Source: Naegleria gruberi
Taxonomy: Eukaryota
NCBI GenBank assembly: GCA_000004985.1
Contig: GG738916.1
Direction: 5' to 3' (one strand)
Length of the DNA stretch: 64,000 bases
Shown: one piece after another, positions 20,527-53,166 of the stretch
Numbering within the stretch: the first letter of the stretch is position 1
Layout of the letters: each line of letters opens with the position of its first letter
Program-made: the position numbers and the translations under genes
Notes under the pieces: model-generated
Seen by the model: only the letters and a program-made list of their open reading frames with translations
Databases searched by the model: none
Told to the model about the DNA's origin: nothing

Positions 20527-22365
20527 TTAAATAAATTCATCAATTCGTATATCTGTATATGCAATCAAATAGTTGATTTTTGTTGGTTGTCTTAATTGTG
20601 ATATGACTTTTGCTTTAAGGGCTGCAAAACCTCCAATTCCAGTCAGATATTTAGGTGCCAGATTATTGACTATAGGTACTAAAATAGGTGTAATTGTTAA
20701 ATCTACCCAATAAAGTTCTAAATGTATCAAATTTTTCAGAGATGGTCCAGAATGTAACATATCAGTTGCATAAATATCAAATTCATAATAAAAACTCAAG
20801 TATCTTAATTTGGGAAAATTTGAATGAGCTAAACTTGATGTAAACTTTGAGTCATATTTGAACTTGCCTGAAGGAACTCTTGTAAACTTTAAAGTTTGTA
20901 AATTTAGTAAATTTCCGTTGCATAAATATGAAATTCCATCAAATGTAATTTCACTTCCTAAATATAATGTTGTCAAGTTACTCATTCTTGATAAATATTT
21001 CATTTCTTCACTATCAATATGTGTTTGAATAATTCGTAAATCAGTAATTTTTGAAAGTTGGGATATGTGATGCATACATCCACTTTTCATTACTACTTTT
21101 CTTAACTCTAAATAGGTTAGATTTTGGACTTTTTCACAGAATTTTCGTATTACATATTCATCTATTTCAGTTCCTTGTTTTGTATTTAGAATGCATAAAT
21201 ATTTCAAATTAAGAAAGTTACCCTCACTCAATTCAGAGAATGTATTATTGTCAACAGGACCAATTTCTAGGTGAGTGAGATTATTTTGAAGAGGTAATAA
21301 ACATCTGTAAGGTAAATCTACTTCCAATTTTGATTGAAAACAAAGTTTTTGGAGTGTATGAATTTTTCCAATTTGTTTCACACATTCACTATTTAAATGT
21401 GAGTGAAGAAAAGTCAATTCTCTCCATGAATTACCACTATTCAACACATTCATAATTGATTTTGTCGACATCTCCAAATCTATTGAAAAAGATTCAAGAT
21501 TTGGTAAAATTGAACTATTAATTGGTGCTATGTATGAAATATTGTCTTTTTGAGATGATTCTGGAGGTCTTGCAACAAAGTTAATATGTTTCAAAGTTCT
21601 AATATTTCCTGGTTGAGTCAATATTTGATTAACACCTTCATCTCCAATTCGATTACGAAGTGTAAGATGTGTTAGACGAGTCAACTTTGATTTGGTCAAT
21701 ACAAGTGTTGCCTTATAATCAAGTCCATTATCAATTAATGTTAGATCTGTTAAATTTAGTAAATTAGTGCATATAGTTCTTAAATTTTCAACTTCCATTT
21801 GAACACTTATTAATTTCAGTGTTGTAATTGGTGAAATATCTTTAGCAGGAATAACAATTGTAATAATATTAGTATTTTGTAATGTCAATAATTCCAGTTT
21901 TTTTGAATTGAATAACTTTTTAAAAAAAGATCTGTTAAGAAAAATAGTTTCCTCAAATTCTGGAAAAGTTCTTATTTCCATTTGTGAGAATATTTGCAAG
22001 AGGTCACCTTTCATCAATCCACTCATTTCCTCCTCATCATTTAATGATTCAAATCTGTATCTTGCTGATTTATGCTTCACATTTACACACTTGATTTCTC
22101 TAGTATCACTTTCTTTTACAATTCTTCTCCACTCGGAACAAACTCCAGCAAAAGCAATCAAAGTATGCCAATTAAAATAGGGAATAATAACATTGCAAAA
22201 TATATCTTGACTCAATTGTAATATTTTGGAATAAATCATCATGTTAATACTATTATCTGTTGTTGTTGTGCTATTACTATCGGTTGTTGTGTTATTATTG
22301 ATGGATTGATAGTGGGTACTTTCTCTAGAAAAACAACAGAATGATGGACAACAAGTTGTCAACAT
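20527..22365 (-). CDS. F-box-like/LRR protein, copy A of the triplicated gene. The ORF as listed includes an N-terminal extension; the probable physiological start is MMIYSKILQ at about 22245.
   Basis: It is near-identical to 2711..4459 and 51448..53166. The upstream element that is conserved in all copies (catgttgacaacttgttgtccatcattctg) is in frame here. Confidence 0.65.
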   Translation of the reverse strand: MLTTCCPSFCCFSRESTHYQSINNNTTTDSNSTTTTDNSINMMIYSKILQLSQDIFCNVIIPYFNWHTLIAFAGVCSEWRRIVKESDTREIKCVNVKHKSARYRFESLNDEEEMSGLMKGDLLQIFSQMEIRTFPEFEETIFLNRSFFKKLFNSKKLELLTLQNTNIITIVIPAKDISPITTLKLISVQMEVENLRTICTNLLNLTDLTLIDNGLDYKATLVLTKSKLTRLTHLTLRNRIGDEGVNQILTQPGNIRTLKHINFVARPPESSQKDNISYIAPINSSILPNLESFSIDLEMSTKSIMNVLNSGNSWRELTFLHSHLNSECVKQIGKIHTLQKLCFQSKLEVDLPYRCLLPLQNNLTHLEIGPVDNNTFSELSEGNFLNLKYLCILNTKQGTEIDEYVIRKFCEKVQNLTYLELRKVVMKSGCMHHISQLSKITDLRIIQTHIDSEEMKYLSRMSNLTTLYLGSEITFDGISYLCNGNLLNLQTLKFTRVPSGKFKYDSKFTSSLAHSNFPKLRYLSFYYEFDIYATDMLHSGPSLKNLIHLELYWVDLTITPILVPIVNNLAPKYLTGIGGFAALKAKVISQLRQPTKINYLIAYTDIRIDEFI

Positions 22366-22507
22366 GCTCTCTTATTTTTTTTTGAACCTTAACTCCATTT
22401 TCCCCATTTTTCTTTTGATTCGGCAAAATACACAAAAACGTACAAAAATGTAAAAAATATTACAACGATGACTTTTGAAAGAGTTTACCAAAACCGACTG
22501 TTAAAAA
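22366..22507. promoter_or_regulatory. Shared divergent (bidirectional) intergenic promoter region between F-box/LRR copy A and NHL-EGF copy 1. It is duplicated almost exactly at 51228..51447.
   Basis: A 142-bp AT-rich spacer lies between two divergently oriented ATGs. The same sequence separates the copy C pair. Confidence 0.4.
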
Positions 22508-23791
22508 ATGAAGAGAGCTCGAGATGAAATGAGAAGCGCAAACAACATTGTCCTGTTATTATTCTTGTTGATGATGATGACAATCTTTTCCACAACAACA
22601 ACAGCAGCAACTACAAGTTCCACCACTAAATTATCATATATTTCAACAATTGCAGGAAGTGGATTAATATCAGCAGCAGGTATGGAAGGAGATGGTGGTT
22701 TGGCTATCAATGCCCAATTAAATTCTCCCTCCTATTCAATAAGTATTTCCCCTCTCAGCAATAATAATTACACTGAAACACTTATTGTCGATACACAAAA
22801 TGGAAGAATTAGAAAAATATTTATGAATGGTACAATTTTCACATTACCAATTAATATGCAAACAGGTAACAAGTTTAAACCAACCATGGCTGTTTTATTT
22901 AGAAATGAATTATACATGACAGATGTGTTAAATCATAGAATTCTTTCTGTTTGCCTTTCACGTTATTTGGTGACCATTGTTTCTGGAAAGCAAAACTGTA
23001 ATGAACATTCTGATTGTGATGGTTTTAGTGGTGATGGTGGTTTAGCTAGTAGAGCAAAATTAAATTCACCTAATGGTCTCTCTATTTCTCAGAATGGTGA
23101 AATTTACATTGCTGACACATTGAACCATAGAATCAGAAAGATTAATAGTTATGGAGTGATTTCAACTATTGCTGGAACTGGTAGAGCATCCTTTGGTGGT
23201 GATGGTGGATTTGCTGTTCTTTCACAATTAAACTCTCCAAATGGTGTTCATATTTCACAGAATGGTGAAATTTACATTGCTGATACATTGAACCATAGAA
23301 TTAGAAAGATTAATAGTTATGGTGTGATTTCAACAGTGGCAGGAACTGGTAGAGCATCATTTGGTGGTGATGGTGGTTTGGCTATAAACTCTCAATTGAA
23401 TTCACCATATGGCGTCCATGTTTCACAGAATGGTGAAATTTACATTGCTGACACATTGAATCATCGAATTAGAAAGATATTTGTGAATGGAACTATTACA
23501 ACCATTGCTGGAAGTAGTAGCGATGGATCATTTGGTGGTGATGGTGGTTTGTCAATTGCGAGTCGACTTAATTCTCCTAAAGGTGTTTTTGTTTCTCCAA
23601 ATAATAATGAAATATTAATTGCAGACACATCAAATAACAGGATTAGAAAGATCATTGAATGTGGTACAACTCTTCAATTTACACAAGATTTCAATGGAGC
23701 TATGAGTTGTGTGAATACATGCAATGGAACACGATCCAATTCAAAATCAGTTTGTAATGGCAATGGTATCTGTAATGGTTTTAATGAATGT
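22508..23791 (+). CDS. NHL-repeat/EGF-repeat giant surface protein, copy 1 (5' part only). The signal peptide, about six NHL repeats and the first two EGF repeats are present; the rest is lost in the assembly gap at 23792..23841.
   Basis: MKRARDEMRSANNIVLLLFLLMMMTIF is the signal peptide. NHL units are repeated (LNSPNGLSISQNGEIYIADTLNHRIRKI...). The first about 1.2 kb is more than 95% identical to copies 2 and 3. Confidence 0.7.
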
Positions 23792-23841
23792 NNNNNNNNN
23801 NNNNNNNNNNNNNNNNNNNNNNNNNNNNNNNNNNNNNNNNN
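23792..23841. other. Assembly gap (50 N).
   Basis: A run of n characters. Confidence 0.99.
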
Positions 23842-24157
23842 CACCGAATAGTCACTGAATGTTTACCATATAATAACCGAATGGTTACTGAATATTTATT
23901 GAATAGTTACCCACCAATTTCATTCCTTTACCCAACAATCAACCGACTACCAACCAACTAACACTGAACTAAAACGGTCAGGCGATTATGGGCTGATATT
24001 CGATTAATTTCTGGAAAATCGTTCAGTTATTTTCGGAAACAAGTTGGGGGAAATTAGGGTTGTAGTCGGTGGTAGTAGGGTTGTGGATGGGGTTTAGACG
24101 GAACATAGCCAACTAAAAACCAACTATAACACTGTCTATTACCCAAGTACTCCACTC
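23842..24157. repeat. Anomalous GC-richer, non-coding island with short direct repeats (gaatRgtYactgaat, three copies) and an imperfect inverted repeat (caaccgactaccaacc and ggttgtagtcggtggtag). It lies immediately after an assembly gap and may be a transposable element or MITE fragment, or a mis-join.
   Basis: Composition and word content differ sharply from the flanking AT-rich DNA. The motif family gactacc/ggtagtc recurs next to another gap at 31681..31900. Confidence 0.3.
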
Positions 24158-24179
24158 TTAGGAGAGAGCTCGAGATGAA

Positions 24180-27100
24180 ATGAGAAGCGCAAACAACATT
24201 GTCCTGTTATTATTCTTGTTGTTGATGATGACACTCTTTTCCACAACAACAACAATAGGATACTTTTCGTATGTGAAAGCAACAACTGCAAGTTCCACCA
24301 CTAAATTATCATATATTTCAACAATTGCAGGAAGTGGATTAATGGCAGCATCAGGTATGGAAGGAGATGGTGGTTTGGCTATCAATGCCCAATTAAATGC
24401 TCCCTCCTATTCAATAAGTATTTCCCCTCTCAACAATAATAATTACACTGAAACACTTATTATAGATACACAAAATGGAAGAATTAGAAAAATATTTATG
24501 AATGGTACAATTTTCACATTACCAATTAATATGCAAACAGGTAACAAGTTTAAACCAACCGTGGCTGTTTTATTTAGAAATGAATTATACATGACAGATG
24601 TGTTAAATCATAGAATTCTTTCTGTTTCTCTGTCAAGTTATTTGGTGACCATTGTTTCTGGAAAGCAAAACTGTAATGGACATTCTGATTGTGATGGTTT
24701 TAGTGGTGATGGTGGTTTAGCTAGTAGAGCAAAATTAAATTCACCAAATGGTCTCTCTATTTCTCAGAATGGTGAAATTTACATTGCTGACACATTGAAC
24801 CATAGAATCAGAAAGATTAATAGTTATGGAGTGATTTCAACTATTGCTGGAACTGGTAGAGCATCCTTTGGTGGTGATGGTGGATTTGCTGTTCTTTCAC
24901 AATTAAACTCTCCAAATGGTGTTCATATTTCACAGAATGGTGAAATTTACATTGCTGATACATTGAACCATAGAATTAGAAAGATTAATAGTTATGGTGT
25001 GATTTCAACAGTGGCAGGAACTGGTAGAGCATCCTTTGGTGGTGATGGTGGTTTGGCTATAAACTCTCAATTGAATTCACCATATGGCGTCCATGTTTCA
25101 CAGAATGGTGAAATTTACATTGCTGACACATTGAATCATCGAATTAGAAAGATATTTGTGAATGGAACTATTACAACCATTGCTGGAAGTAGTAGCGATG
25201 GATCATTTGGTGGTGATGGTGGTTTGTCAATTGCGAGTCGACTTAATTCTCCTAAAGGTGTTTTTGTTTCTCCAAATAATAATGAAATATTAATTGCAGA
25301 CACATCAAATAACAGGATTAGAAAGATCATTGAATGTGGTACAACTCTTCAATTACACAAGATNNNNNNNNNNNNNNNNNNNNNNNNNNNNNNNNNNNNN
25401 NNNNNNNNNNNNNNNNNNNNNNNNNNNNNNNNNNNNNNNNNNNNNNNNNNNNNNNNNNNNNNNNNNNNNNNNNNNNNNNNNNNNNNNNNNNNNNNNNNNN
25501 NNNNNNNNNNNNNNNNNNNNNNNNNNNNNNNNNNNNNNNNNNNNNNNNNNNNNNNNNNNNNNNNNNNNNNNNNNNNNNNNNNNNNNNNNNNNNNNNNNNN
25601 NNNNNNNNNNNNNNNNNNNNNNNNNNNNNNNNNNNNNNNNNNNNNNNNNNNNNNNNNNNNNNNNNNNNNNNNNNNNNNNNNNNNNNNNNNNNNNNNNNNN
25701 NNNNNNNNNNNNNNNNNNNNNNNNNNNNNNNNNNNNNNNNNNNNNNNNNNNNNNNNNNNNNNNNNNNNNNNNNNNNNNNNNNNNNNNNNNNNNNNNNNNN
25801 NNNNNNNNNNNNNNNNNNNNNNNNNNNNNNNNNNNNNNNNNNNNNNNNNNNNNNNNNNNNNNNNNNNNNNNNNNNNNNNNNNNNNNNNNNNNNNNNNNNN
25901 NNNNNNNNNNNNNNNNNNNNNNNNNNNNNNNNNNNNNNNNNNNNNNNNNNNNNNNNNNNNNNNNNNNNNNNNNNNNNNNNNNNNNNNNNNNNNNNNNNNN
26001 NNNNNNNNNNNNNNNNNNNNNNNNNNNNNNNNNNNNNNNNNNNNNNNNNNNNNNNNNNNNNNNNNNNNNNNNNNNNNNNNNNNNNNNNNNNNNNNNNNNN
26101 NNNNNNNNNNNNNNNNNNNNNNNNNNNNNNNNNNNNNNNNNNNNNNNNNNNNNNNNNNNNNNNNNNNNNNNNNNNNNNNNNNNNNNNNNNNNNNNNNNNN
26201 NNNNNNNNNNNNNNNNNNNNNNNNNNNNNNNNNNNNNNNNNNNNNNNNNNNNNNNNNNNNNNNNNNNNNNNNNNNNNNNNNNNNNNNNNNNNNNNNNNNN
26301 NNNNNNNNNNNNNNNNNNNNNNNNNNNNNNNNNNNNNNNNNNNNNNNNNNNNNNNNNNNNNNNNNNNNNNNNNNNNNNNGCCAATTCTGTGAAATTCCAA
26401 TTTGTAATGGAACAATGGCAACTGATGCTTTGGTTTGTAATGGCAATGGTACATGTATTCAACCAGATATATGTAATTGTACTTCAGAATGGGGTGGACA
26501 GTATTGTGAAATTCCATATTGTAATGGAATATTGGCAAATAATATATCTGCTTGTGAAGGACATGGTAACTGTATTAGCCCAAATATTTGTGAGTGTAAT
26601 TCGACATATGGTGGAGAATTTTGTGAATCTCCAAAATGTAACTTTACACTGGCAACTGATCCTTATGTATGTACTGGAAATGGAGAATGTATTCAACCAG
26701 ATGAATGTATTTGTAATACCAATTGGACTGGTCAATTCTGTCAAACTCCACTTTGTAATGGTACGAGTGCAACTGATGCATTGGTTTGTAATGGAAACGG
26801 TCAATGTGTGAGTCCAAATATTTGTGAATGTAATTCAAGTTGGTCAGGAGAACTTTGTGAAATTCCAATTTGTAATGGAACTTTGGCCATTGATGAATTT
26901 GTGTGTAGTGGTAATGGTGCATGTATTGGTCCAGATGTTTGTGAGTGCAATTCTACATGGGGTGGACAATATTGTGAATCTCCAAAATGTAACTCTACAC
27001 TGGCAACTGATCCTTATGTATGCAATGGTAATGGAGAATGTTTTCAACCCAATGAATGTATTTGTAATTCAAATTGGACAGGTCCATTTTGTGAAATTCC

Positions 27101-29044: not shown

Positions 29045-29171
29045 TACAATTATAAACCATTTAGTTGTTGTTTCCAATAATCTCAAAAATATTAGATTTT
29101 TTCCCTTGGTCAACCAAAGTTTTCTTGATTAGTTTCAAAAGAAAAGAGACAATAATAAACAAATTCTCAAT

Positions 29172-43077: not shown

Positions 43078-43217
43078 TTTTTTTAAAAGTCATGAGGAGG
43101 AATATGCCTTCCTTTTAAAATATTGAAACATTGAATCGTTCGTGTATTTAAATTTTCCAAACATAGCAACCAACTCAATTGAGACATTAAATTATTGTTG
43201 GTTGTGTTTAAAAAAAA

Positions 43218-44603: not shown

Positions 44604-47600
44604 CTACATGTTGTACTCCTTAAGAGCTTTTTCACTACTTGCTAATGCACTCGAAACACCTTTGACAAATTGAAGTGCAATTGTAATATATGGACTAAGG
44701 AAAGATAACAATACTATAATAATGATCAAAAGTAGTGCAACACCAATGATTACTAAAACTGTTACCACTTGTTGAAGCGTAATTCCAGAAAATATTTTTG
44801 GAAAATAAATCACTGCCCATTCTATAAATTCAACAAATGTTGTCCACAAATTGAGAATAAAGTTAATAAACTTCTCTGCATTGCTAATCAAAAAGTTCAG
44901 AATTTTCTCCATTAATTTTGGAATGGAGCTGAAAATATCTGCAATGTTTGGAATAACTCCTCCAAAAAGGTCAATAAAACCAGTTCCTAAGGATTCAATA
45001 ACATTACCAATTGAACTACCTATAGATGCTGCACCAGATGCCATATCACCAATTAAATCCCAACCTTCCACAAGAACATCCCAAAAAGAGGCACCTCTAC
45101 GTGAGTCACCACAATTCTTGTCAGGAACAACACTACTACAATCATAATCCATATAACCCTGATAACATTTACATGTATCAACTGCTATACAATCACCATG
45201 TCCAGAACATACTTCTTTCTTGTCTCCTGAAATATCGAAACATTTTGGAAAGCCACACATGAAACCACCCCAATTCGGTTGACAGATACACTTATTTGGT
45301 CCCAAACACAATCCACGACCACTACACACAGCTCCTTCTACATTAATGTGAGTGGATAAAATGCTATTACAACTTAAAGTGCCACAGAATGCATCTCCAT
45401 AACCAGAAAAACATTCACACTTATCAAAATCGACACAAACACCACTTGAATTGCACACGTTTGGATCTGTGGCAACAATTCCATTACATGTTGGTGTTGC
45501 ACATAATTTTCCACCCCATGAATTGCAACTACATTCATCATTCTCAATACAAATACCCCTCGAGTTACATACTGTTGGATCTGTGGCCAAAGTTCCATTA
45601 CATGTTGGAACGGTACAGAATTCACCTCCCCAATCTCTATAACAATTACACTTATCTGGTGCAACACACACTCCAAAACCATTACAAACAGTTAGTTCAG
45701 TGGCCGATGTTCCATTACATGTTGGTGTTGAACATAATGGTCCAGTCCAACCTTTCTCACATTTGCATCGATTAAGATCAATACACTTTCCATTTCCACT
45801 ACATGCATTACTCTTTGCGATACACACTTCATTCTCATCAAATGCAAGAATTCCATTACATGATGGTATTGTACATAGTTTACCACCCCAACCTGAGAGA
45901 CATTTACATTGATTTGGACCAACACATACTCCCAATGAATTACACACATTTGAATCAGTTGCTAAAGTTCCATTACAAAATGGAATTTCACAAAATTGAC
46001 CTCCCCACATTTCATTACATTGACATTGATTTTCATTGACACATTTTCCTCTAGAGTTGCAAACTGCCTCATTGTTAGCCAATATACCTTGACATTTAGG
46101 TATTTCACATTGTTTACCACCCCAATTTAAATTACAATTGCATTGATTTGGACTAGTACATTCACCATGTCCACTACACACCAATGTATTATTGCTAACT
46201 ATAGTTCCATTACTATCAGTATTGGTAGTAGCATTGGTAGATAGAATATTATTACAAATTGGTGTGGAACAATCTTCACCTCCCCAACCAGTTAAACAGA
46301 TACAAAGATTGGCACCAATACAATCACCCTTTCTACTACAAACAGATATATTAGTGGAAATTATACCACTACATATTGGAGTTTCACATAATTGATCTGT
46401 CCAATTTGAGTCGCAAATGCATTCATTTGGTTGAACACATTTACCATTGCCATTACATGCTGTTTCATTGGTTGCCAAAACATCTCCACATATTGGAATT
46501 TCACAATATTGACCTGCCCAATTTGAATTACATAAACATTCGTCTGGACGAATGCAAAGACCATTTCCACTACACACCACTGTTTCATTGGTGGTTAAAG
46601 TTGAATTACTATCATTGGTAGCCTTAATACCATTACATATTGGAATTTCACAAAATGGACCTGTCCAATTTGAATTACAAATACATTCATTGGGTTGAAA
46701 ACATTCTCCATTACCATTGCATACATAAGGATCAGTTGCCAGTGTAGAGTTGCATTTTGGAGATTCACAATATTGTCCACCCCATGTAGAATTGCACTCA
46801 CAAACATCTGGACCAACACATGCACCATTACCACTACACACAAATTCATAAATGGCCAAAGTTCCATTACAAATTGGAATTTCACAAAGTTCTCCTGACC
46901 AACTTGAATTACATTCACAAATATTTGGACTCACACATTGACCGTTTCCACTACAAACCAAAACATCAGTTGCACTCGTACCATTGCAAAGTGGAGTTTG
47001 ACAGAATTGACCAGTCCAATTACTATTACATAAACATTGGTCTGGATTAATACATATACCATTAGTGTTACAAACTGATTCATTTGTGGCTAAAGTTCCA
47101 TTACAGATTGGAATTTCACACAAATAACCTCCCCATGTTGAATTACATTCACAGGTGTCTGGACTGACACAAATACCATTACCACTACAAACTGATAAAT
47201 CTGTACCAGCTGTTCCATTACAAAGTGGAGTTTGACAGAATTGACCAGTCCAATTGGTATTACAAATACATTCATCTGGTTGAATACATTCACCATTTCC
47301 ATTACATACATAAGGATCAGTTGCCAGTGTAGAGTTACATTTTGGAGATTCACAAAATTCTCCACCATATGTCGAATTACACTCACAAATATTTGGGCTA
47401 ATACAGTTACCATGTCCTTCACAAACAGATATATTATTTGCCAATATTCCATTACAAAATGGAATTTCACAATACTGTCCACCCCATTCTGAAGTACAAT
47501 TACATATATCTGGTTGAATACATGTACCATTGCCATTACAAACCAAAGTATCAGTTGCCATTGTTCCATTACAAATTGGAATTTCACAAAATTGGCCTGT

Positions 47601-50600
47601 CCAATTGGAATTGCAAAAACATTCATCTGGATTAATACAAATACCGTTGCTGTTGCACACTGTGTCATTGGTAGCTAACGTTCCATTACAAACTGGGACT
47701 TGACAAAATTGTCCACCCCATTCTGATGTACAAACACATTCATCTGGTTGAATACATATTCCATTGCCATTACATACAGTTTCGTTGGTGGCTTCAGTAC
47801 CATTACATATTGGAATTTCACAAAATTGACCTGTCCAATTGTAATTGCAAAGACATTCGTCAGGTTGAATACATGCTCCATTGTTGTTACAAACAAAAGG
47901 ATCAGTTGCGAGTGTAGAGTTGCATTTTGGAATTTCACATAAATCACCTCCCCATGTTGAATTGCAGTTACAAATATTTGGATTAATACATTCACCATTA
48001 CCACTACAAACTGATAAATCTGTACCAGCTGTACCATTACAAAGTGGTGTTTCACACAATTTACCAGTCCAATTTGTATTACAAATGCATTCATCTGGTT
48101 GAACACATTCGCCATTACCATTACAAACAGAATAGTTGTTAGCTAAAGTTCCATTACAAATTGGAATTTCACAAAATTCTCCACTATATGTCGAATTACA
48201 CTGACAAAGATTTGGACCAACACATGCACCGTTACCGCTACATACAGATTCGTTAGTGGCTTCTGTTCCATTACAAATTGGAATTTCACAAAATTGCCCA
48301 GTCCAATTGGAATTACATAAACATTCATCTGGGCGAATGCAAAGACCATTTCCACTACACGCCACTGTTTCATTGGTGGCTAATGTCGCATTGCTATCAT
48401 TGGTAGCTTTAATACCTCCACAGATTGGAATTTCACAATAAGGACCTGTCCAATTTGAATTACAAAAACATTCATCTGGCTGAATACATTCTCCATTACC
48501 ATTACAAACAAAAGGATCAGTTGCATTTGTTCCATTACATACTGGAATTTCACAAAATTGACCAGTCCAATTCGAGTTACATTCACAAATATTTGGACTA
48601 ATACATTTACCATGTCCTGCACAAACAGATGTATCATTAGCAAGAGTATCATTACATATTGGAATTTCACAAAATTCTCCACTCCAAGTTGAATTACATT
48701 CACAAACATCTGGACTAATACAAATACCATTACCACTACATACTGTTGAGTTTGCATCCTCTAGGGTTACATTACAGAGAGGAAATTGACAAAATGGACC
48801 ATAATACCCTGATTGACAATCGCAAGTGTCCAGTGAAGTACATATTCCATGAGAAGTACAAACTGTAGAATTTGTACTTTCAATTGAATTACAAGTTGTC
48901 ATATTACAATAAGTTCCAAAGTATCCACTTGTACAAACACAATTATCACTTGAAATGCACAATCCATGAGAATTGCAAACAGTAGTTTCATTTCCTGAAA
49001 TGTTAAAGCAAGTTGGAATTTCACATTGATATCCTGAATAGCCATCATTACATACACATGTATCGTTTGCAACACATGTTCCGTTTTGATTATTACAAAC
49101 CATTGAATCATTTCCCAATATTGAAAAACAAATTGGAATTTCACAATATTGACCTGTAAATCCTGATTCACAATCACAAGTTTCTGGGCTAGTGCAATTA
49201 CCAACACCATTACAAACACTTGAACTATTTGAAAGTGTATTGTTACAAATAGAAAGCTCACAACACACTCCAGCATATCCCTGACAAATACAAGGATCAT
49301 TAGTATCAATCAGAGCAAATGATGTTAAATGGGATGTTTCACAAATAACAGTACTAGAATTCACCATTTTAGTTCTTACACCATCAGATTTCCATGTATT
49401 TTCAATCCTATCCAAATACATACATGTTAAATTGGATGATTTGGTTATGTTTTGTGAGTGTAATGGAATGATCAAAGTGATTGGCTTGTTCAATTGTTTT
49501 ACAATAACTTCTTTACCACTATCACTCAGTAAAGAAACAGAAACTATAGCACTTTTAACTTTAGGTGTTATCTTATCAATATAAATTGATGAAAATAGAA
49601 TTAATGAGCTATCACTGTTCAATCCACTTGTTGAAATCAAATCACTACTCAATGTGGAAGGAAGTGAAATTTGAATACCCATATTAGTATTCGAATAACT
49701 ATAAGAAACATAAATATTCTTCGAATTTAAATCACCCAATTGATTTGCAACTTGATAATTGTAGGATGTGACATTTGTTGAAACAGCTATTGAACAATAA
49801 GATCCAATCCAACCGTAATTGCAAACACAAGTTTCTGGACTAGTACAATTTCCAACACCATTACAAACCTTCTTACTTGTAGCAAGTGTACCATTACAAA
49901 TTGGTGTTTGACAATATTGACCTCCCCAAGTTGAATTACATTTACATTCATTAAAACCATTACAGATACCATTGCCATTACAAACTGATTTTGAATTGGA
50001 TCGTGTTCCATTGCATGTATTCACACAACTCATAGCTCCATTGAAATCTTGTGTAAATTGAAGAGTTGTGCCACATTCAATGATCTTTCTAATCCTGTTA
50101 TTGGATGTGTCTGCAATTAATATTTCATTATTATTTGGAGAAACAAAAACACCTTTAGGAGAATTAAGTCGACTCGCAATTGACAAACCACCATCACCAC
50201 CAAATGATCCATCGCTACTACTTCCAGCAATGGTTGTAATAGTTCCATTCACAAATATCTTTCTAATTCGATGATTCAATGTGTCAGCAATGTAAATTTC
50301 ACCACTCTGTGAAACATGGACGCCATATGGTGAATTCAATTGAGAGTTTATAGCCAAGCCACCATCACCACCAAATGATGCTCGACCAGTTCCTGCTACT
50401 GTTGTAATCAGTCCGTTAACAAATATCTTTCTAATTCTATGGTTCAATGTATCAGCAATATAAATTTCACCATTCTGAGAAATATGAACACCATTTGGAG
50501 AGTTCAATGGTGAAAGAACAGCAAATCCACCGTCACCACCAAATGATGCTCTACCAGTTCCAGCAATAGTTGAAATTACACCATAACTATTAATCTTTCT

Positions 50601-51227
50601 GATTCTATGGTTCAATGTGTCAGCAATGTAAATTTCACCATTCTGAGAAATAGAGAGACCATTTGGTGAATTTAATTTTGCTCTACTAGCTAAACCACCA
50701 TCACCACTAAAACCATCACAATCAGAATGTTCATTACAGTTTTGCTTTCCAGAAACAATGGTCACCAAATAACTTGACAGAGAAACGGAAAGAATTCTAT
50801 GATTTAACACATCTGTCATGTATAATTCATTTCTAAATAAAACAGCCATGGTTGGTTTAAACTTGTTACCTGTTTGCATATTAATTGGTAATGTGAAAAT
50901 TGTACCATTCATAAATATTTTTCTAATTCTTCCATTTTGTGTATCGACAATAAGTGTTTCAGTGTAATTATTATTGTTGAGAGGTGAAATACTTATTGAA
51001 TAGGAGGGAGAATTTAATTGGGCATTGATAGCCAAACCACCATCTCCTTCCATACCTGCTGCTGCCATTAATCCACTTCCTGCAATTGTTGAAATATATG
51101 ATAATTTAGTGGTGGAACTTGTAGTTGCTGCTGTTGTTGTTGTGGAAAAGATTGTCATCATCATCAACAAGAATAATAACAGGACAATGTTGTTTGCGCT
51201 TCTCATTTCATCCAGAGCTCTCTTCAT
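44604..51227 (-). CDS. NHL-repeat/EGF-repeat giant surface protein, copy 3. It is intact (2207 aa, no gaps) and shows the full architecture. The domains in order are: signal peptide; six to seven NHL repeats (aa about 45-385); two EGF repeats; an about 165-aa domain ending in a GPS/GAIN-like motif (aa about 480-645); about 45 tenascin-type EGF repeats rich in N-glycosylation sequons; an about 120-aa Gly-rich amphipathic domain; a TM anchor; and an about 30-aa tail.
   Basis: It is a continuous ORF on the minus strand. The signal peptide is MKRALDEMRSANNIVLLLFLLMMMTIF. The GPS-like motif is TCMYLDRIENTWKSDGV...STVICETSHLTSFALI. The C-terminal TM is VVTVLVIIGVALLLIIIIVLL. Confidence 0.8.
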   Translation of the reverse strand: MKRALDEMRSANNIVLLLFLLMMMTIFSTTTTAATTSSTTKLSYISTIAGSGLMAAAGMEGDGGLAINAQLNSPSYSISISPLNNNNYTETLIVDTQNGRIRKIFMNGTIFTLPINMQTGNKFKPTMAVLFRNELYMTDVLNHRILSVSLSSYLVTIVSGKQNCNEHSDCDGFSGDGGLASRAKLNSPNGLSISQNGEIYIADTLNHRIRKINSYGVISTIAGTGRASFGGDGGFAVLSPLNSPNGVHISQNGEIYIADTLNHRIRKIFVNGLITTVAGTGRASFGGDGGLAINSQLNSPYGVHVSQSGEIYIADTLNHRIRKIFVNGTITTIAGSSSDGSFGGDGGLSIASRLNSPKGVFVSPNNNEILIADTSNNRIRKIIECGTTLQFTQDFNGAMSCVNTCNGTRSNSKSVCNGNGICNGFNECKCNSTWGGQYCQTPICNGTLATSKKVCNGVGNCTSPETCVCNYGWIGSYCSIAVSTNVTSYNYQVANQLGDLNSKNIYVSYSYSNTNMGIQISLPSTLSSDLISTSGLNSDSSLILFSSIYIDKITPKVKSAIVSVSLLSDSGKEVIVKQLNKPITLIIPLHSQNITKSSNLTCMYLDRIENTWKSDGVRTKMVNSSTVICETSHLTSFALIDTNDPCICQGYAGVCCELSICNNTLSNSSSVCNGVGNCTSPETCDCESGFTGQYCEIPICFSILGNDSMVCNNQNGTCVANDTCVCNDGYSGYQCEIPTCFNISGNETTVCNSHGLCISSDNCVCTSGYFGTYCNMTTCNSIESTNSTVCTSHGICTSLDTCDCQSGYYGPFCQFPLCNVTLEDANSTVCSGNGICISPDVCECNSTWSGEFCEIPICNDTLANDTSVCAGHGKCISPNICECNSNWTGQFCEIPVCNGTNATDPFVCNGNGECIQPDECFCNSNWTGPYCEIPICGGIKATNDSNATLATNETVACSGNGLCIRPDECLCNSNWTGQFCEIPICNGTEATNESVCSGNGACVGPNLCQCNSTYSGEFCEIPICNGTLANNYSVCNGNGECVQPDECICNTNWTGKLCETPLCNGTAGTDLSVCSGNGECINPNICNCNSTWGGDLCEIPKCNSTLATDPFVCNNNGACIQPDECLCNYNWTGQFCEIPICNGTEATNETVCNGNGICIQPDECVCTSEWGGQFCQVPVCNGTLATNDTVCNSNGICINPDECFCNSNWTGQFCEIPICNGTMATDTLVCNGNGTCIQPDICNCTSEWGGQYCEIPFCNGILANNISVCEGHGNCISPNICECNSTYGGEFCESPKCNSTLATDPYVCNGNGECIQPDECICNTNWTGQFCQTPLCNGTAGTDLSVCSGNGICVSPDTCECNSTWGGYLCEIPICNGTLATNESVCNTNGICINPDQCLCNSNWTGQFCQTPLCNGTSATDVLVCSGNGQCVSPNICECNSSWSGELCEIPICNGTLAIYEFVCSGNGACVGPDVCECNSTWGGQYCESPKCNSTLATDPYVCNGNGECFQPNECICNSNWTGPFCEIPICNGIKATNDSNSTLTTNETVVCSGNGLCIRPDECLCNSNWAGQYCEIPICGDVLATNETACNGNGKCVQPNECICDSNWTDQLCETPICSGIISTNISVCSRKGDCIGANLCICLTGWGGEDCSTPICNNILSTNATTNTDSNGTIVSNNTLVCSGHGECTSPNQCNCNLNWGGKQCEIPKCQGILANNEAVCNSRGKCVNENQCQCNEMWGGQFCEIPFCNGTLATDSNVCNSLGVCVGPNQCKCLSGWGGKLCTIPSCNGILAFDENEVCIAKSNACSGNGKCIDLNRCKCEKGWTGPLCSTPTCNGTSATELTVCNGFGVCVAPDKCNCYRDWGGEFCTVPTCNGTLATDPTVCNSRGICIENDECSCNSWGGKLCATPTCNGIVATDPNVCNSSGVCVDFDKCECFSGYGDAFCGTLSCNSILSTHINVEGAVCSGRGLCLGPNKCICQPNWGGFMCGFPKCFDISGDKKEVCSGHGDCIAVDTCKCYQGYMDYDCSSVVPDKNCGDSRRGASFWDVLVEGWDLIGDMASGAASIGSSIGNVIESLGTGFIDLFGGVIPNIADIFSSIPKLMEKILNFLISNAEKFINFILNLWTTFVEFIEWAVIYFPKIFSGITLQQVVTVLVIIGVALLLIIIIVLLSFLSPYITIALQFVKGVSSALASSEKALKEYNM

Positions 51228-51447
51228 TTTTTAACAGTCGGTTTTGGTAAACTCTTTCAAAAGTCATCGTTGTAATATTTTTTACATTTTTGTACGTTTT
51301 TGTGTATTTTGCCGAATCAAAAGAAAAATGGGGAAAATGGAGTTAAGGTTCAAAAAAAATAAGAGAGCATGTTGACAACTTGTTGTCCATCATTCTGTTG
51401 TTTTTCTAGAGAAAGTACCCACTATCAATCCATCGATAATAACACAA
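51228..51447. promoter_or_regulatory. Shared divergent intergenic region for the copy C gene pair (duplicate of 22366..22507). It contains the conserved element gcatgttgacaacttgttgtccatcattctg at 51367..51397.
   Basis: The sequence is identical to the copy A spacer. The conserved element is also retained at 2648..2678 upstream of the unpaired copy B. Confidence 0.4.
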
Positions 51448-53166
51448 TTGCCGATGAAATATTCTAAAATATTGCAAGTGAGTCAAGATATATTTTGCAA
51501 TGTAATTATTCCCTATTTTAATTCACATACTTTGATTGCTTTTGCTGGAGTTTGTTCCGAGTGGAGAAGAATTGTCAAAGAAAGTGATACTAGAGGAATC
51601 AAGTGTGTAAATGTAAAACATAAATCAGCAAGATACAGATTTGAATCATTAAATGATGAGGAGGAAATGAGTGGATTAATGAAAGGTGACCTCTTGCAAA
51701 TATTCTCACAAATGGAAATAAGAACTTTTCCAGAATTTGAGGAAACTATTTTTCTTAACAGATCTTTTTTTAAAAAGTTATTCAATTCAAAAAAATTGGA
51801 ATTATTGACATTACAAAATACTAATATTATTACAATTATTATTCCTGCTAAAGATATTTCACCAATTACAACACTGAAATTAATAAGTGTTCAAATGGAA
51901 GTTGAGAATTTAAGAACTATATGCACTAATTTACTAAATTTAACAGATCTAACATTAATTGATAATGGACTTGATTATAAGGCAACACTTGTATTGACCA
52001 AATCAAAGTTGACTCGTCTAACACATCTTACACTTCGTAATCGAATTGGAGATGAAGGTGTTAATCAAATATTGACTCAACCAGGAAATATTAGAACTTT
52101 GAAATATATTAACTTTGTTGCAATACCTCCAGAATCATCTCAAAAAGACAATATTTCATACATAGCACCAATTAATAGTTCAATTTTACCAAATCTTGAA
52201 TATTTTTCAATAGATTTGGAGATGTCGACAAAATCAATTATGAATGTGTTGAATAGTGGTAATTCATGGAGAGAATTGACCTTTCTTCACTCACATTTAA
52301 ATAGTGAATGTGTGAAACAAATTGGAAAAATTCATACACTCCAAAAACTTTGTTTTCAATCAAAATTGGAAGTAGATTTACCTTACAGATGTTTATTACC
52401 TCTTCAAAATAATCTCACTCATCTAGAAATTGGTCCTGTTGATAATAATACATTCTCTGAATTGAGTGAGGGTAACTTTCTTAATTTGAAATATTTATGC
52501 ATTCTAAATACAAAACAAGGAAATGAAATAGATGAATATGTAATACGAAAATTCTGTGAAAAAGTTCAAAATCTAACCTATTTAGAGTTAAGAAAAGTAG
52601 TAATGAAAAGTGGATGTATGAATCACATATCCCAACTTTCAAAAATAACTGATTTACGAATTATTCAAACACATATTGATAGTGAAGGAATGAAATATTT
52701 ATCAAGAATGAGTAACATGACAACATTATATTTAGGAAGTGAAATTACATTTGATGGTATTTCATATTTATGCAAGGGAAATTTACTAAATTTACACACT
52801 TTAAAGTTTACAAGAGTTCCTTCAGGCAAGTTCAAATATGACTCAAAGTTTACATCAAGTTTAGCTCATTCAAATTTTCCAAAATTAAGATATTTGAGTT
52901 TTTATTATGAATTTGATATTTATGCAACTGATATGTTACATTCTGGACCATCTCTGAAAAATTTGATACATTTAGAACTTTATTGGGTAGATTTAACAAT
53001 TACACCTATTTTAGTACCTATAGTCAATAATCTGGCACCTAAATATCTGACTGGAATTGGAGGTTTTGCAGCCCTTAAAGCAAAAGTCATATCACAATTA
53101 AGACAACCAACAAAAATCAACTATTTGATTGCATATACAGATATACGAATTGATGAATTTATTTAA
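51448..53166 (+). CDS. F-box-like/LRR protein, copy C. The start is probably MKYSKILQ at 51454.
   Basis: It is near-identical to copies A and B. It shares the C-terminus GIGGFAALKAKVISQLRQPTKINYLIAYTDIRIDEFI with copy A. Confidence 0.65.
   Translation: MPMKYSKILQVSQDIFCNVIIPYFNSHTLIAFAGVCSEWRRIVKESDTRGIKCVNVKHKSARYRFESLNDEEEMSGLMKGDLLQIFSQMEIRTFPEFEETIFLNRSFFKKLFNSKKLELLTLQNTNIITIIIPAKDISPITTLKLISVQMEVENLRTICTNLLNLTDLTLIDNGLDYKATLVLTKSKLTRLTHLTLRNRIGDEGVNQILTQPGNIRTLKYINFVAIPPESSQKDNISYIAPINSSILPNLEYFSIDLEMSTKSIMNVLNSGNSWRELTFLHSHLNSECVKQIGKIHTLQKLCFQSKLEVDLPYRCLLPLQNNLTHLEIGPVDNNTFSELSEGNFLNLKYLCILNTKQGNEIDEYVIRKFCEKVQNLTYLELRKVVMKSGCMNHISQLSKITDLRIIQTHIDSEGMKYLSRMSNMTTLYLGSEITFDGISYLCKGNLLNLHTLKFTRVPSGKFKYDSKFTSSLAHSNFPKLRYLSFYYEFDIYATDMLHSGPSLKNLIHLELYWVDLTITPILVPIVNNLAPKYLTGIGGFAALKAKVISQLRQPTKINYLIAYTDIRIDEFI

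What the first reader, a model, noticed from the sequence alone, without database searches (positions are those of the whole stretch)
20527..53166. Triplicated F-box/LRR gene, twice paired head-to-head with a giant NHL-EGF surface protein, arranged as an inverted segmental duplication
The F-box-like/LRR gene occurs three times (2711-4459, 20527-22365, 51448-53166). Two copies are paired, across an identical about 150-220-bp divergent promoter, with a more than 2000-aa type I surface protein (NHL propeller, GPS-like motif, about 45-50 EGF repeats, Gly-rich domain, TM anchor). The two pairs lie on opposite strands about 22 kb apart, and a third surface-protein copy sits in tandem after the first. 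Over about 6 kb the duplicated copies are almost identical, which points to recent duplication or ongoing gene conversion. Identity collapses in the last about 250 codons (juxtamembrane domain, TM and tail). A locus of divergently transcribed, rapidly homogenised or diversified surface-receptor genes is what kin- or allorecognition systems look like, for example the tgrB1/tgrC1 locus in Dictyostelium and fungal het loci. An adjacent F-box/LRR partner would be a novel pairing for such a locus. The intervening 20 kb is itself filled with other expanded membrane-protein families.
Basis: partly seen in the sequence, partly recalled or inferred. Interest (0 to 1): 0.8.

Follow-up and report, generated by a model that had tools for sequence, protein, structure and literature searches.

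The report
Duplicated F-box and surface-protein gene pair
In the amoeba Naegleria gruberi, a pair of neighbouring genes (a ubiquitin-ligase adaptor and a giant cell-surface protein) has been copied in reverse orientation and partly kept alike by gene conversion. This is an ordinary lineage-specific gene-family expansion in a gap-ridden draft assembly, with no evidence that it is a self-recognition locus.

Summary
The window is part of a Naegleria gruberi NEG-M scaffold. The inverted duplication is real. The left arm (20524-29238) matches the right arm (53169-44431), with a 15.2-kb spacer. Each arm carries an F-box/LRR gene head-to-head with an NHL-GPS-EGF type I membrane protein gene.

The left surface gene is split into four contigs. 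The "third tandem copy" is one 1.5-kb contig with gaps on both sides. Only the right gene (2207 aa, about 37 EGF repeats rather than 45-50) is intact.

Synonymous divergence varies significantly along the arms: 0.02 in the EGF array, 0.06-0.08 in the LRR and NHL parts, and 0.23 in the last 300 codons. The 205-bp shared spacer has no substitutions. LRR copies are mosaics, including a fourth copy on another scaffold. This points to an old duplication followed by patchy gene conversion.

The ectodomain is under purifying selection (omega 0.2-0.5). N. lovaniensis has a single F-box/LRR ortholog with an NHL-repeat relic head-to-head, so the pairing is ancestral. N. fowleri lacks the partner.

The allorecognition reading fails the features I could test. 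Polymorphism of the surface gene could not be tested.

The parts
2735..4459 (+). F-box/LRR copy 1 (GenBank EFC37617). It lies downstream of a calpain gene and has no NHL-EGF partner.
   Evidence: Exact cluster look-up. It is 94-96% identical to the other copies, with dS 0.063 and omega 0.36. Its position after calpain is confirmed in an independent metagenome contig, L004, at 99% identity.
20527..22365 (-). F-box/LRR left copy (EFC37661, annotated from the internal Met at 22242). This is the ancestral, syntenic position.
   Evidence: Synteny with N. lovaniensis locus L001: Z-family neighbour downstream and NHL relic upstream.
22303..22507 (.). Shared divergent spacer, left arm: about 205 nt with no substitutions relative to the right arm.
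   Evidence: Global alignment and multiple alignment.
22508..23791 (+). Left NHL-EGF gene, 5' part (contig A): signal peptide plus NHL repeats. It ends at a 50-N gap.
   Evidence: Pfam TEN_NHL and NHL hits. It is 97% identical to the right copy, with dS 0.076 and omega 0.20. Gap positions.
23842..25363 (+). Contig B, the supposed 'third tandem copy'. It is a gap-bounded 1.5-kb duplicate of the gene's 5' end, with unrelated sequence upstream.
   Evidence: dS is 0.025 to contig A and 0.084 to the right copy. Private changes are 13 nonsynonymous to 1 synonymous, three of them in the last three codons before the gap.
26380..28106 (+). Left NHL-EGF gene, EGF-array part (contig C), with gaps on both sides.
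   Evidence: 98-100% identical to right 47596-45636 apart from a 234-nt indel. dS 0.023 and omega 0.49.
28157..29044 (+). Left NHL-EGF gene, 3' end (contig D): last EGFs, orphan C-terminal region, TM segment and tail. Similarity to the right arm continues to 29238.
   Evidence: 80% nucleotide identity, dS 0.227, dN 0.191, omega 0.84. The last 177 aa are 60% identical.
44604..51227 (-). Right NHL-GPS-EGF gene: an intact, gap-free 2207-aa ORF encoding a type I membrane protein.
   Evidence: ORF list, Pfam, TM scan and sequence. No near-identical protein was found in the database.
50073..51095 (-). NHL beta-propeller region (about six 56-aa repeats, aa 45-385).
   Evidence: Pfam NHL and TEN_NHL hits. 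168-nt tandem period.
49308..49430 (-). GPS motif (...C-x9-W...ICETSHL/TSFALID, aa 600-640). It sits between EGF 2 and EGF 3, about 1500 aa from the TM segment.
   Evidence: Pfam PF01825, E 4.8e-7, 30.6 bits against a 22.5 cutoff. Sequence.
45135..49295 (-). Array of about 35 teneurin-type EGF repeats with a 117-nt period.
   Evidence: Pfam EGF_Teneurin, EGF_2 and EGF_TEN hits. Tandem Repeats Finder. 228 Cys in the whole protein.
44607..45137 (-). Orphan C-terminal 177 aa: a Gly/Ser/Ile-rich hydrophobic region, the TM segment (aa 2154-2172) and a tail of about 35 aa.
   Evidence: No homologs in the word-indexed search. Only two marginal hits, at E 1e-4 and 9e-4, among 1.84 billion representatives. 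No Pfam match.
51228..51453 (.). Shared divergent spacer, right arm.
51454..53166 (+). F-box/LRR right copy (EFC37623 is a truncated 499-aa model of it).
   Evidence: dS to the left copy is 0.057 with omega 0.20. The AF2 model has pLDDT 80 and its best PDB matches are TIR1, COI1 and FBXL2-SKP1.
34803..39244 (+). Diverged third NHL-EGF paralog in the spacer. It is split into three ORFs, lacks a GPS motif and has a TM segment at its end.
   Evidence: Pfam. BLASTP 36-43% to the right gene..
41317..43077 (-). Diverged F-box/LRR paralog (25-28% identity) with a significant Pfam F-box hit. It lies head-to-head with a 4-TM family gene at 43218-44306.
16090..17646 (+). Another diverged F-box/LRR paralog, head-to-head with the 4-TM family gene 14532-15983.

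Best explanation
The locus is a genuine, N. gruberi-specific inverted segmental duplication of a two-gene block.
- One gene encodes a cytosolic F-box/LRR protein, most likely an FBXL-type substrate receptor of an SCF ubiquitin ligase.
- The other encodes a giant type I surface glycoprotein: signal peptide, six-bladed NHL propeller, two EGFs, a GPS motif, about 35 EGFs, an orphan hydrophobic region, a TM segment and a short tail.

The block sits in a cluster of at least five locally expanded gene families. The left arm is the ancestral site. The head-to-head pairing of an F-box/LRR gene with an NHL-repeat membrane protein gene predates the N. gruberi / N. lovaniensis split.

The original duplication is relatively old (dS 0.2-0.4 at the 3' end). 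Later non-allelic gene conversion homogenised about 7.5 kb, comprising the LRR gene, the spacer, the NHL part and the EGF array. It left a mosaic of tracts of different age, and sequence was also exchanged with the other F-box/LRR copies.

Both kinds of gene remain under purifying selection, so they are probably functional.

Shown: the duplication, its boundaries, the mosaic divergence, the domain content and the synteny.
Inferred: the surface protein acts as an adhesion or particle-sensing receptor, the GPS motif may allow shedding of the NHL head, and the F-box protein is an SCF adaptor.

The gaps and the stray contig B on the left arm are assembly damage. It was probably caused by the near-identical arms and the internal 117- and 168-nt repeats.
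For: - Organism: exact protein matches to N. gruberi EFC37616, EFC37622 and EFC37660 on a 245-kb scaffold.
- Arms and identity profile.
- Unique flanks: the right arm, and contig A of the left arm, are gap-free and continuous with unique flanking genes.
- Divergence along the arms: dS 0.057 (LRR), 0.076 (NHL), 0.023 (EGF array) and 0.227 (3' end). Omega is 0.20, 0.20, 0.49 and 0.84 respectively. The heterogeneity is significant: EGF array against 3' end p=7e-12, NHL against EGF array p=0.0035.
- Spacer: 0 substitutions in about 205 nt.
- Mosaic LRR copies: EFC35768 has a left-type 5' end and a copy-1-type 3' end. Fifteen consecutive copy-1-private sites lie at the 3' end. Eight of 10 differences between strains in copy 1 equal the state of a paralog.
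- Relatives: one ortholog cluster each in N. lovaniensis and N. fowleri. N. lovaniensis has NHL-repeat ORFs plus a TM ORF on the opposite strand directly upstream, and a homolog of 19362-20504 downstream.
- F-box: significant in the paralog, sub-threshold at the same position in all orthologs, and an N-terminal profile hits the Skp2 F-box at E 4e-4.
- Structure: the best matches are TIR1, COI1, FBXL2-SKP1 and KDM2A-SKP1.
- Surface protein domains.
Against: - About 2.3 kb of the left surface gene is missing. Whether the left gene is intact and how many EGF units it has are unknown.
- Contig B and the 9.7-kb scaffold show that the true copy number and arrangement are unresolved.
- The zero-substitution spacer could reflect selection on a shared promoter rather than recent conversion.
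- Omega of 0.84 in the last 294 codons, with one 50-codon block at 1.9, leaves room for relaxed or positive selection there.
- There are no expression, interaction or population data. All functional statements are inferred from domains.
- The metagenome contigs used as a second strain may be chimeric short-read assemblies.
Confidence: 0.75

Rival explanations
1. Recognition locus. The duplicated, divergently transcribed pairs would form a self/non-self, kin or mating recognition system, comparable to Dictyostelium tgrB1/tgrC1. The surface protein would be the polymorphic determinant and the F-box/LRR protein a novel intracellular partner.
For: - The structural dynamics resemble what is described for the tgrBC locus, namely duplications, inversions and intralocus recombination (PMC12745789). 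Here there is an inverted duplication, gene conversion and a stray extra copy.
- The determinant would be a large surface glycoprotein.
- Omega rises to 0.84 in the C-terminal 294 codons.
- F-box/LRR copy 1 differs 5 times more between two strains than the adjacent calpain gene: 1.9% against 0.35%, p=9e-4.
Against: - One partner is cytosolic (F-box plus LRR solenoid), so this is not a ligand-receptor pair of membrane proteins.
- The NHL and EGF ectodomain is homogenised and under purifying selection, with omega 0.20-0.49.
- The divergent part comprises the last EGFs, the juxtamembrane region, the TM segment and the tail. Its dS is raised as well.
- Most between-strain differences in the LRR gene are paralog-derived variants.
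- N. lovaniensis keeps only a relic of the partner and N. fowleri keeps none.
- The closest N. lovaniensis NHL-EGF gene is not next to an F-box gene.
- Short divergent spacers are the norm in this window.
- From general knowledge, no aggregation or somatic fusion stage is known in Naegleria.
Confidence: 0.06
2. Assembly artefact. The two arms, contig B and the 9.7-kb scaffold would be uncollapsed haplotypes or mis-scaffolded pieces of a single locus.
For: - Four N runs interrupt the left arm.
- Contig B duplicates the 5' end of the gene and floats between gaps. Its private changes look like neutral drift or read errors: 13 nonsynonymous to 1 synonymous, with three in the last codons before the gap.
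- The scaffold distance from the end of contig A to the start of contig C (2588 nt) is close to the 2347 nt expected for a single gene. Contig B therefore looks like an intruder.
- A fourth LRR copy sits on a small unplaced scaffold.
Against: - Both the right arm (44431-53169) and the outer part of the left arm (contig 1-23791) are gap-free and continuous with different unique genes.
- The arms differ by 2-8% at synonymous sites and by 20% at the 3' end. Two strains differ by about 0.35-1% in the flanks.
- The arms differ by a two-EGF-unit indel and by a 36-41-nt indel near the LRR start.
- Independent metagenome contigs contain copy 1 next to calpain, plus a second, distinct LRR type.
- This rival is likely correct only for the 'third tandem copy'.
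Confidence: 0.08
3. Functionally coupled module. The F-box/LRR protein and the NHL-EGF membrane protein would be co-regulated from a conserved bidirectional promoter and work together. For example, the SCF adaptor could control turnover or signalling of the receptor. That would explain why they are inherited and duplicated as a unit. This reading is compatible with the best explanation.
For: - The pair was duplicated as a unit.
- The head-to-head arrangement with an NHL-repeat membrane gene is shared with N. lovaniensis.
- The spacer has 0 substitutions in 205 nt, against dS 0.06-0.08 in both flanking genes.
- Two diverged F-box/LRR paralogs in the window are also head-to-head with membrane-protein genes.
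Against: - Copy 1 of the F-box/LRR gene persists without a partner, with omega 0.36.
- The N. lovaniensis partner is degenerate and abuts the LRR start codon. N. fowleri has none, yet both keep the F-box/LRR gene.
- The cytoplasmic tail of the surface protein is only about 35 aa.
- The identical spacer lies inside a wider tract of about 99% identity, so recent conversion explains it equally well.
- Divergent spacing of 100-230 nt is the norm here.
Confidence: 0.2

Closest known systems
Dictyostelium tgrB1/tgrC1 allorecognition locus
   Same: Adjacent, divergently transcribed genes lie in a region that undergoes duplication, inversion and intralocus recombination or conversion (PMC12745789). 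One product here is a large type I surface glycoprotein.
   Different: - Both Tgr partners are polymorphic membrane proteins forming a ligand-receptor pair (PMC11088635 and PMC12142906 abstracts). Here one partner is a cytosolic F-box/LRR protein.
- The domains are NHL, GPS and EGF. That the Tgr proteins are instead built of IPT/TIG-type domains is my recollection and was not checked here.
- The ectodomain is homogenised and under purifying selection.
- Polymorphism is unmeasured.
- No aggregative stage is known in Naegleria.
FBXL-type F-box/LRR substrate receptors of SCF ubiquitin ligases (Skp2, FBXL2, TIR1/COI1)
   Same: The protein has an N-terminal F-box-like helix bundle followed by a long LRR solenoid. 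A profile of the N-terminus hits the Skp2 F-box. The full-length model aligns best with TIR1, COI1, FBXL2-SKP1 and KDM2A-SKP1.
   Different: - The F-box scores below Pfam's threshold in the triplicated gene.
- The sequence reads LSQDI where F-boxes usually have Leu-Pro (the usual motif is from memory).
- Skp1 binding and substrates are unknown.
- The gene is single-copy in N. lovaniensis and N. fowleri but has at least 4 copies in N. gruberi.
Teneurins
   Same: Pfam's teneurin-derived models TEN_NHL, EGF_Teneurin and EGF_TEN give the strongest matches. Both are large cell-surface proteins.
   Different: - No YD/RHS shell or toxin-like domain was found.
- The orientation is type I, with an N-terminal signal peptide and a C-terminal TM segment. 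Teneurins are type II (general knowledge).
- The NHL domain precedes the EGF array.
- There are about 37 EGFs, against about 8 in teneurins (general knowledge).
GAIN/GPS autoproteolytic proteins (adhesion GPCRs, polycystin-1)
   Same: The GPS motif scores above Pfam's gathering threshold and has an intact HL/T site followed by SFA.
   Different: - The motif lies about 1500 residues from a single TM segment rather than next to a 7TM or 11TM domain.
- It appears to have only one of the two disulfide pairs I recall for canonical GPS motifs (C...W...C-E-T-S-H-L-T).
- The GAIN fold could not be modelled (pLDDT 37).
N. gruberi NHL-EGF-GPS receptor kinase EFC41150 and N. lovaniensis C9374_014632
   Same: These are the closest eukaryotic relatives found. 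They have NHL propellers followed by teneurin-type EGF arrays and a TM segment.
   Different: - EFC41150 carries a cytoplasmic protein kinase domain and has its GPS-like motif next to the TM segment.
- C9374_014632 has no GPS motif and is not next to an F-box gene.
- Neither shares the C-terminal 177 aa.

Membership tests
tgrB1/tgrC1-type allorecognition locus | Adjacent, divergently transcribed gene pair | tested here: met
   Head-to-head pairs lie at 20527-22365(-)/22508(+) and 44604-51227(-)/51454(+). Divergent spacers of 106-226 nt are common in this window, so this feature has little discriminating power.
tgrB1/tgrC1-type allorecognition locus | Both partners are membrane proteins forming a ligand-receptor pair | tested here: not met
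   The partner is an F-box/LRR solenoid protein with no TM segment or signal peptide.
tgrB1/tgrC1-type allorecognition locus | Extreme polymorphism between natural isolates | not testable with these tools
   No second-strain sequence of the surface gene could be retrieved. Only 524 nt of F-box/LRR copy 1 could be compared. It is 1.9% different against 0.35% in calpain, and the differences are mostly paralog-derived variants.
tgrB1/tgrC1-type allorecognition locus | Diversifying selection on the extracellular recognition domain | tested here: not met
   Between paralogs, omega is 0.20 (NHL) and 0.49 (EGF array). The divergent 3' end has omega 0.84 with dS also raised to 0.23. This is a paralog comparison, not a population test.
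Fungal het loci | HET, NACHT/NLR or other known incompatibility domains | tested here: not met
   Pfam scans of all large ORFs in the region found none.
FBXL (F-box/LRR) SCF substrate receptors | N-terminal F-box | tested here: met
   Pfam is sub-threshold in the triplicated gene (E 0.0085) and in its orthologs, but at the same position in each. It is significant in the paralog 41317-43077 (32.4 bits against a 24.3 cutoff). A profile of five N-termini hits Skp2 at E 4e-4, and F-box proteins dominate the hit list.
FBXL (F-box/LRR) SCF substrate receptors | C-terminal LRR solenoid | tested here: met
   Pfam LRR_14. The AF2 model has pLDDT 80 with alternating strand and helix repeats. Foldseek matches TIR1 and COI1 at E 1e-10 over about 565-630 alignment columns.
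FBXL (F-box/LRR) SCF substrate receptors | Binds Skp1 and recruits substrates for ubiquitination | not testable with these tools
   This needs biochemical assays.
Teneurins | Type II orientation with YD-repeat shell and C-terminal toxin-like domain | tested here: not met
   There are no YD/RHS Pfam hits. The protein has an N-terminal signal-like segment and a C-terminal TM segment.
GAIN/GPS autoproteolytic domain proteins | GPS motif with HL/T(S) cleavage site | tested here: met
   PF01825 at 30.6 bits against a 22.5 cutoff. The sequence is ICETSHLTSFALID.
GAIN/GPS autoproteolytic domain proteins | GAIN fold preceding the GPS motif, adjacent to a multi-pass TM domain | tested here: inconclusive
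   The single-sequence AF2 model is unusable (pLDDT 37). The only TM segment is about 1500 aa away.
Segmental duplication with non-allelic gene conversion | Paralogous blocks of more than 1 kb at more than 90% identity with distinct unique flanks | tested here: met
Segmental duplication with non-allelic gene conversion | Mosaic divergence, or sites among copies that are phylogenetically incompatible | tested here: met
   dS heterogeneity is significant. All four combinations of variants occur among the four NEG-M LRR proteins, for example at columns 129 and 539. Private sites are clustered.

The most novel reading that the evidence does not exclude
The F-box/LRR plus NHL-GPS-EGF pair could be a functionally coupled, fast-turning-over recognition module of Naegleria, used for self, mating-partner or prey recognition. 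Local inverted duplication and gene conversion would generate new receptor variants, and a dedicated SCF adaptor would read out or control the receptor. That would make it an independently evolved analogue of the Dictyostelium tgrBC hypermutable locus with an unprecedented intracellular partner.
Probability: 0.06. Interest if true: 0.75.

Novelty: new member of a known kind. Interest (0 to 1): 0.3.

Why it matters
As it stands, the finding mainly matters for annotation and assembly.
- A 2207-aa NHL-GPS-EGF surface protein gene appears to have no gene model in the N. gruberi protein set.
- The left arm of the locus is mis-assembled or incomplete.
- An F-box/LRR gene that is single-copy in N. 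lovaniensis and N. fowleri has at least four copies in N. gruberi, and these exchange sequence by gene conversion.

It is a clean small example of concerted evolution in a heterolobosean genome. It also shows that a GPS motif can sit inside an NHL-EGF adhesin-like protein outside animals and Amoebozoa.

It would become important only if strain data showed exceptional polymorphism, or if the pair proved to be functionally coupled.

Tried and rejected
- Genomic context of N. gruberi proteins via the look-up of encoding contigs: N. gruberi is not on record, so other NHL-EGF or F-box pairs in this genome and the 9.7-kb scaffold could not be read.
- Full-length search with the giant protein: it was swamped by bacterial NHL-repeat proteins, and only two Naegleria relatives surfaced.
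- Search with the C-terminal 177 aa: no hits. The exhaustive HMMER search gave two marginal, repeat-like hits (E 1e-4 and 9e-4) carrying only sub-threshold Pfam matches. I treat them as noise.
- JGI metagenome scan with the F-box/LRR alignment: 354 pattern matches, none confirmed.
- AF2 of the GPS region without an alignment: pLDDT 37, unusable, so no fold search was run.
- Sequence profile of the whole F-box/LRR protein against PDB: only generic LRR hits. The N-terminal profile was needed to see the F-box.
- Literature: no paper combines Naegleria with NHL and EGF proteins. F-box/LRR mentions concern Legionella effectors. The N. gruberi genome paper is not held, so NEG-M heterozygosity could not be checked. 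No telomere data exist for Naegleria.
- Similarity between the C-terminus of the N. lovaniensis relic and the N. gruberi C-terminus: none.
- Haplotig reading for the two main arms: rejected, because the flanks are unique and divergence is far above the between-strain level.

Full report
SOURCE AND CONTEXT
Three ORFs of the window are exact matches to Naegleria gruberi proteins EFC37616, EFC37622 and EFC37660, all on one 245,038-bp scaffold. The window is therefore nuclear DNA of the heterolobosean amoeboflagellate N. gruberi NEG-M. It is about 32% G+C and gene-dense, with calpain, Paf1, TCP-1, CRT-like and RGS genes around the finding.

The window contains five runs of N: 23792-23841 (50), 25364-26379 (1016), 28107-28156 (50), 28230 (1) and 31186-31680 (495). 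They change the reading of the left half of the finding.

THE OBSERVATION
A BLASTN of the window against itself and local alignments show two arms.
- The left arm is 20524-29238.
- The right arm is 53169-44431, in inverted orientation.
- The spacer between them is 15.2 kb.

The right arm is gap-free. The left arm is four contigs:
- Contig A, 20524-23791, is 96.5% identical to the right arm.
- Contig B is 23842-25363.
- Contig C, 26380-28106, is 98-100% identical apart from a 234-nt indel (two EGF units).
- Contig D, 28157-29238, is 80% identical, falling from 93% to 67% toward the end.

The outer boundary is sharp and lies 3 nt beyond the stop codon of the F-box/LRR gene.

Each arm carries an F-box/LRR gene head-to-head with an NHL-EGF gene. 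A third F-box/LRR copy (2735-4459) lies downstream of a calpain gene without a partner.

The spacer is remarkably conserved. About 205 nt upstream of the surface-gene ATG has no substitution and one poly-T length difference.

CONTIG B
The supposed third tandem surface-protein copy is contig B only.
- It is 1.5 kb long and bounded by gaps on both sides.
- It repeats codons 2-401 of the gene.
- It has unrelated, non-coding, unique sequence upstream (23842-24162), lacks the first ATG and carries a 24-nt in-frame insertion.
- It is closest to contig A (dS 0.025).
- Its private changes are 13 nonsynonymous to 1 synonymous, three of them in the last three codons before the gap. That is the pattern of a decaying fragment or of read errors.
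- The scaffold distance from the end of A to the start of C (2588 nt) is close to the 2347 nt expected for one gene. The B-to-C gap (1016 N) is far from the 2449 nt expected if B were the 5' end of the gene that contains C.

I regard B as an unplaced piece of another copy, or a divergent allele, that was dropped into the gap. This is suggestive only, because the 50-N gaps are nominal.

THE GENES
The right surface gene is a single 6.6-kb ORF of 2207 aa. Its parts are:
- a signal-like hydrophobic N-terminus (aa 14-32);
- NHL repeats with a 56-aa period (about six blades);
- two EGFs;
- a 165-aa non-EGF region ending in a GPS motif (ICETSHLTSFALID; Pfam PF01825, 30.6 bits against a 22.5 cutoff);
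- about 35 further teneurin-type EGF repeats with a 39-aa period (228 Cys in all, so about 37 EGFs, not 45-50);
- a 120-aa Gly/Ser/Ile-rich hydrophobic region;
- one strong TM segment (aa 2154-2172) and a tail of about 35 aa.

There is no YD shell, and the orientation is type I. Despite the Pfam model names, it is not a teneurin.

Neither the whole protein nor its last 177 aa finds a near-identical entry in the protein collection, although neighbouring N. gruberi proteins are present. The gene therefore appears to be unannotated. An exhaustive HMMER search with the C-terminal 177 aa gave only two marginal hits. The nearest eukaryotic relatives are an N. gruberi NHL-EGF-GPS receptor kinase (EFC41150) and an N. 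lovaniensis NHL-EGF membrane protein.

The F-box call for the triplicated gene rests on four lines.
- A diverged paralog in the window (41317-43077) has a significant Pfam F-box hit that aligns with the same N-terminal segment.
- Sub-threshold F-box hits occur at that position in the gene and in its N. lovaniensis and N. fowleri orthologs.
- A profile of five N-termini hits the Skp2 F-box at E 4e-4, and F-box proteins dominate the hit list.
- An AF2 model (pLDDT 80, pTM 0.78) has as its best solved matches TIR1, COI1, FBXL2-SKP1 and KDM2A-SKP1 over nearly its full length.

It is best described as an FBXL-type protein with a weak F-box.

HISTORY OF THE DUPLICATION
Nei-Gojobori estimates between the arms are:

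| Segment | dS | omega |
|---|---|---|
| F-box/LRR gene | 0.057 | 0.20 |
| NHL part | 0.076 | 0.20 |
| EGF array (contig C) | 0.023 | 0.49 |
| Last 294 codons | 0.227 (dN 0.191) | 0.84 |

The differences in dS are significant: EGF array against 3' end p=7e-12, NHL against EGF array p=0.0035. Together with the zero-substitution spacer, this is a mosaic of tracts of different age, which a single clock-like duplication would not produce.

The collapse of identity at the 3' end affects synonymous sites as much as replacement sites. It therefore marks the limit of homogenisation, or an older paralogous segment, rather than a hotspot of positive selection. Constraint there is nevertheless weaker.

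The F-box/LRR copies tell the same story.
- The three window copies are about equidistant (dS 0.057-0.064), but copy 1 has 15 consecutive private sites at its 3' end.
- A fourth NEG-M copy on a 9.7-kb scaffold (EFC35768) combines a left-type 5' end with a copy-1-type 3' end.
- In a second strain, recovered from an ENA/Logan metagenome and 99% identical over window 1-3258, 8 of 10 differences in copy 1 equal the state of a paralog.

All of this indicates non-allelic gene conversion. The caveat is that short-read metagenome contigs can be chimeric.

COMPARISON WITH RELATIVES
The F-box/LRR gene has one ortholog cluster each in N. lovaniensis (42% identity) and N. fowleri (41%).

In N. lovaniensis:
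- The region directly upstream, on the opposite strand, holds two to three degenerate NHL repeats followed by an ORF with a TM segment and a short tail.
- That ORF abuts, and partly overlaps, the start of the F-box/LRR gene.
- Downstream lies a homolog of window gene 19362-20504.

The left arm is therefore the ancestral position. The head-to-head pairing of this F-box/LRR gene with an NHL-repeat membrane gene predates the split of the two species. The N. lovaniensis partner has no EGF array and looks like a relic.

N. fowleri has no NHL sequence next to its ortholog. The closest N. lovaniensis NHL-EGF gene is not beside an F-box gene. The pairing is therefore specific to this locus and is not a rule for the two families.

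THE WIDER LOCUS
All-against-all BLASTP of the window ORFs and a hydrophobicity scan show at least five locally expanded families:
- F-box/LRR: five genes;
- NHL-EGF: three genes plus contig B;
- a 4-TM family: 13636, 14532, 40330 and 43218;
- a type I glycoprotein family of about 700 aa: 29172-31074 and 32620-34749;
- a multi-TM family: 17702 and 19362.

Two of the diverged F-box/LRR genes are also head-to-head with 4-TM genes. However, divergent spacers of 106-226 nt are the norm in this window, and these pairs are related by duplication. The arrangement is weak evidence for functional coupling.

INTERPRETATION
The best-supported reading is an ordinary, though nicely documented, lineage-specific inverted segmental duplication with subsequent gene conversion. 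It lies inside a cluster of expanding gene families, and the draft assembly has damaged it.

The recognition-locus idea shares the structural dynamics described for the Dictyostelium tgrBC region (PMC12745789). It fails on the features that could be tested:
- the partner is cytosolic;
- the ectodomain is conserved and homogenised;
- the relatives have lost or degraded the partner.

The defining feature, extreme polymorphism between isolates, could not be tested for the surface gene.

A functional link between the two genes remains possible. They were duplicated as a unit, the adjacency is ancestral and the spacer is identical. Recent conversion explains these facts equally well. In addition, copy 1 and the orthologs in the relatives persist without an intact partner.

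VERDICT
The allorecognition part is not supported. Novelty: a new member of a known kind. Interest: 0.3.

Noticed in passing
window 44604-51227 (-): The intact 2207-aa NHL-GPS-EGF ORF has no near-identical entry in the protein collection, which does hold its N. gruberi neighbours. Its last 177 aa hit nothing. It appears to lack a gene model in the N. gruberi annotation. Short fragment models under about 450 aa cannot be excluded.
   Followed up: partly
L001 20870-21094 (N. lovaniensis PYSW02000018.1, contig end): The N. lovaniensis ortholog of the F-box/LRR gene lies about 9 kb from a contig end. That end consists of about 15 tandem copies of CTCTTTGGGTTTACT followed by irregular G/T-rich GGTTT-type sequence, so it may be subtelomeric. 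The motif is absent from the window, and no Naegleria telomere data were found in the literature.
   Followed up: partly
window 13636-14400, 14532-15983, 40330-41220, 43218-44306: This is a family of four diverged 4-TM membrane proteins with no Pfam match. Two members lie head-to-head with diverged F-box/LRR paralogs (16090-17646 and 41317-43077), in mutually inverted orientation. This hints at an older round of block duplication.
   Followed up: partly
window 29172-31074 (interrupted by N at 31186-31680) and 32620-34749 (-): Two paralogous type I glycoprotein genes of about 700 aa (44-56% identity) have no Pfam match. The second lies head-to-head, 128 nt away, with the diverged NHL-EGF paralog.
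   Followed up: no
window 34803-39244 (+): The third, diverged NHL-EGF gene is split into three ORFs, by introns or frameshifts. It has no GPS motif. It contains a 435-nt super-repeat of 2.5 copies at 93% identity, which suggests recent internal repeat expansion.
   Followed up: no
window 17702-19195 (-) and 19362-20504 (+): These are two paralogous multi-TM genes in divergent orientation. The second has a homolog next to the F-box/LRR ortholog in N. lovaniensis (L001 11829-12378), which anchors the synteny.
   Followed up: partly
window 5460-5530 (+): A tRNA-Asp (GTC) gene.
   Followed up: no
window 23202-23401 and 50334-50558 (codons 224-298 of the surface gene): 20 of the 24 changes private to the right copy in the NHL region fall within codons 224-298, inside the 168-nt tandem NHL repeats. 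This patch either escaped homogenisation or was converted from another repeat unit.
   Followed up: no
L004 and L005 (ENA ERZ929261 / Logan ERR1078381): A public metagenome run contains a Naegleria strain about 99% identical to NEG-M over window 1-3258. It has at least two distinct F-box/LRR sequence types. It could serve as a second strain for polymorphism analysis if its reads were reassembled.
   Followed up: partly
P0068 (N. gruberi EFC41150, other scaffold): N. gruberi encodes a 2807-aa receptor kinase with several NHL propellers, an EGF array, a GPS-like motif next to the TM segment and a cytoplasmic kinase domain. NHL-EGF ectodomains are therefore used in signalling receptors in this organism.
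   Followed up: no
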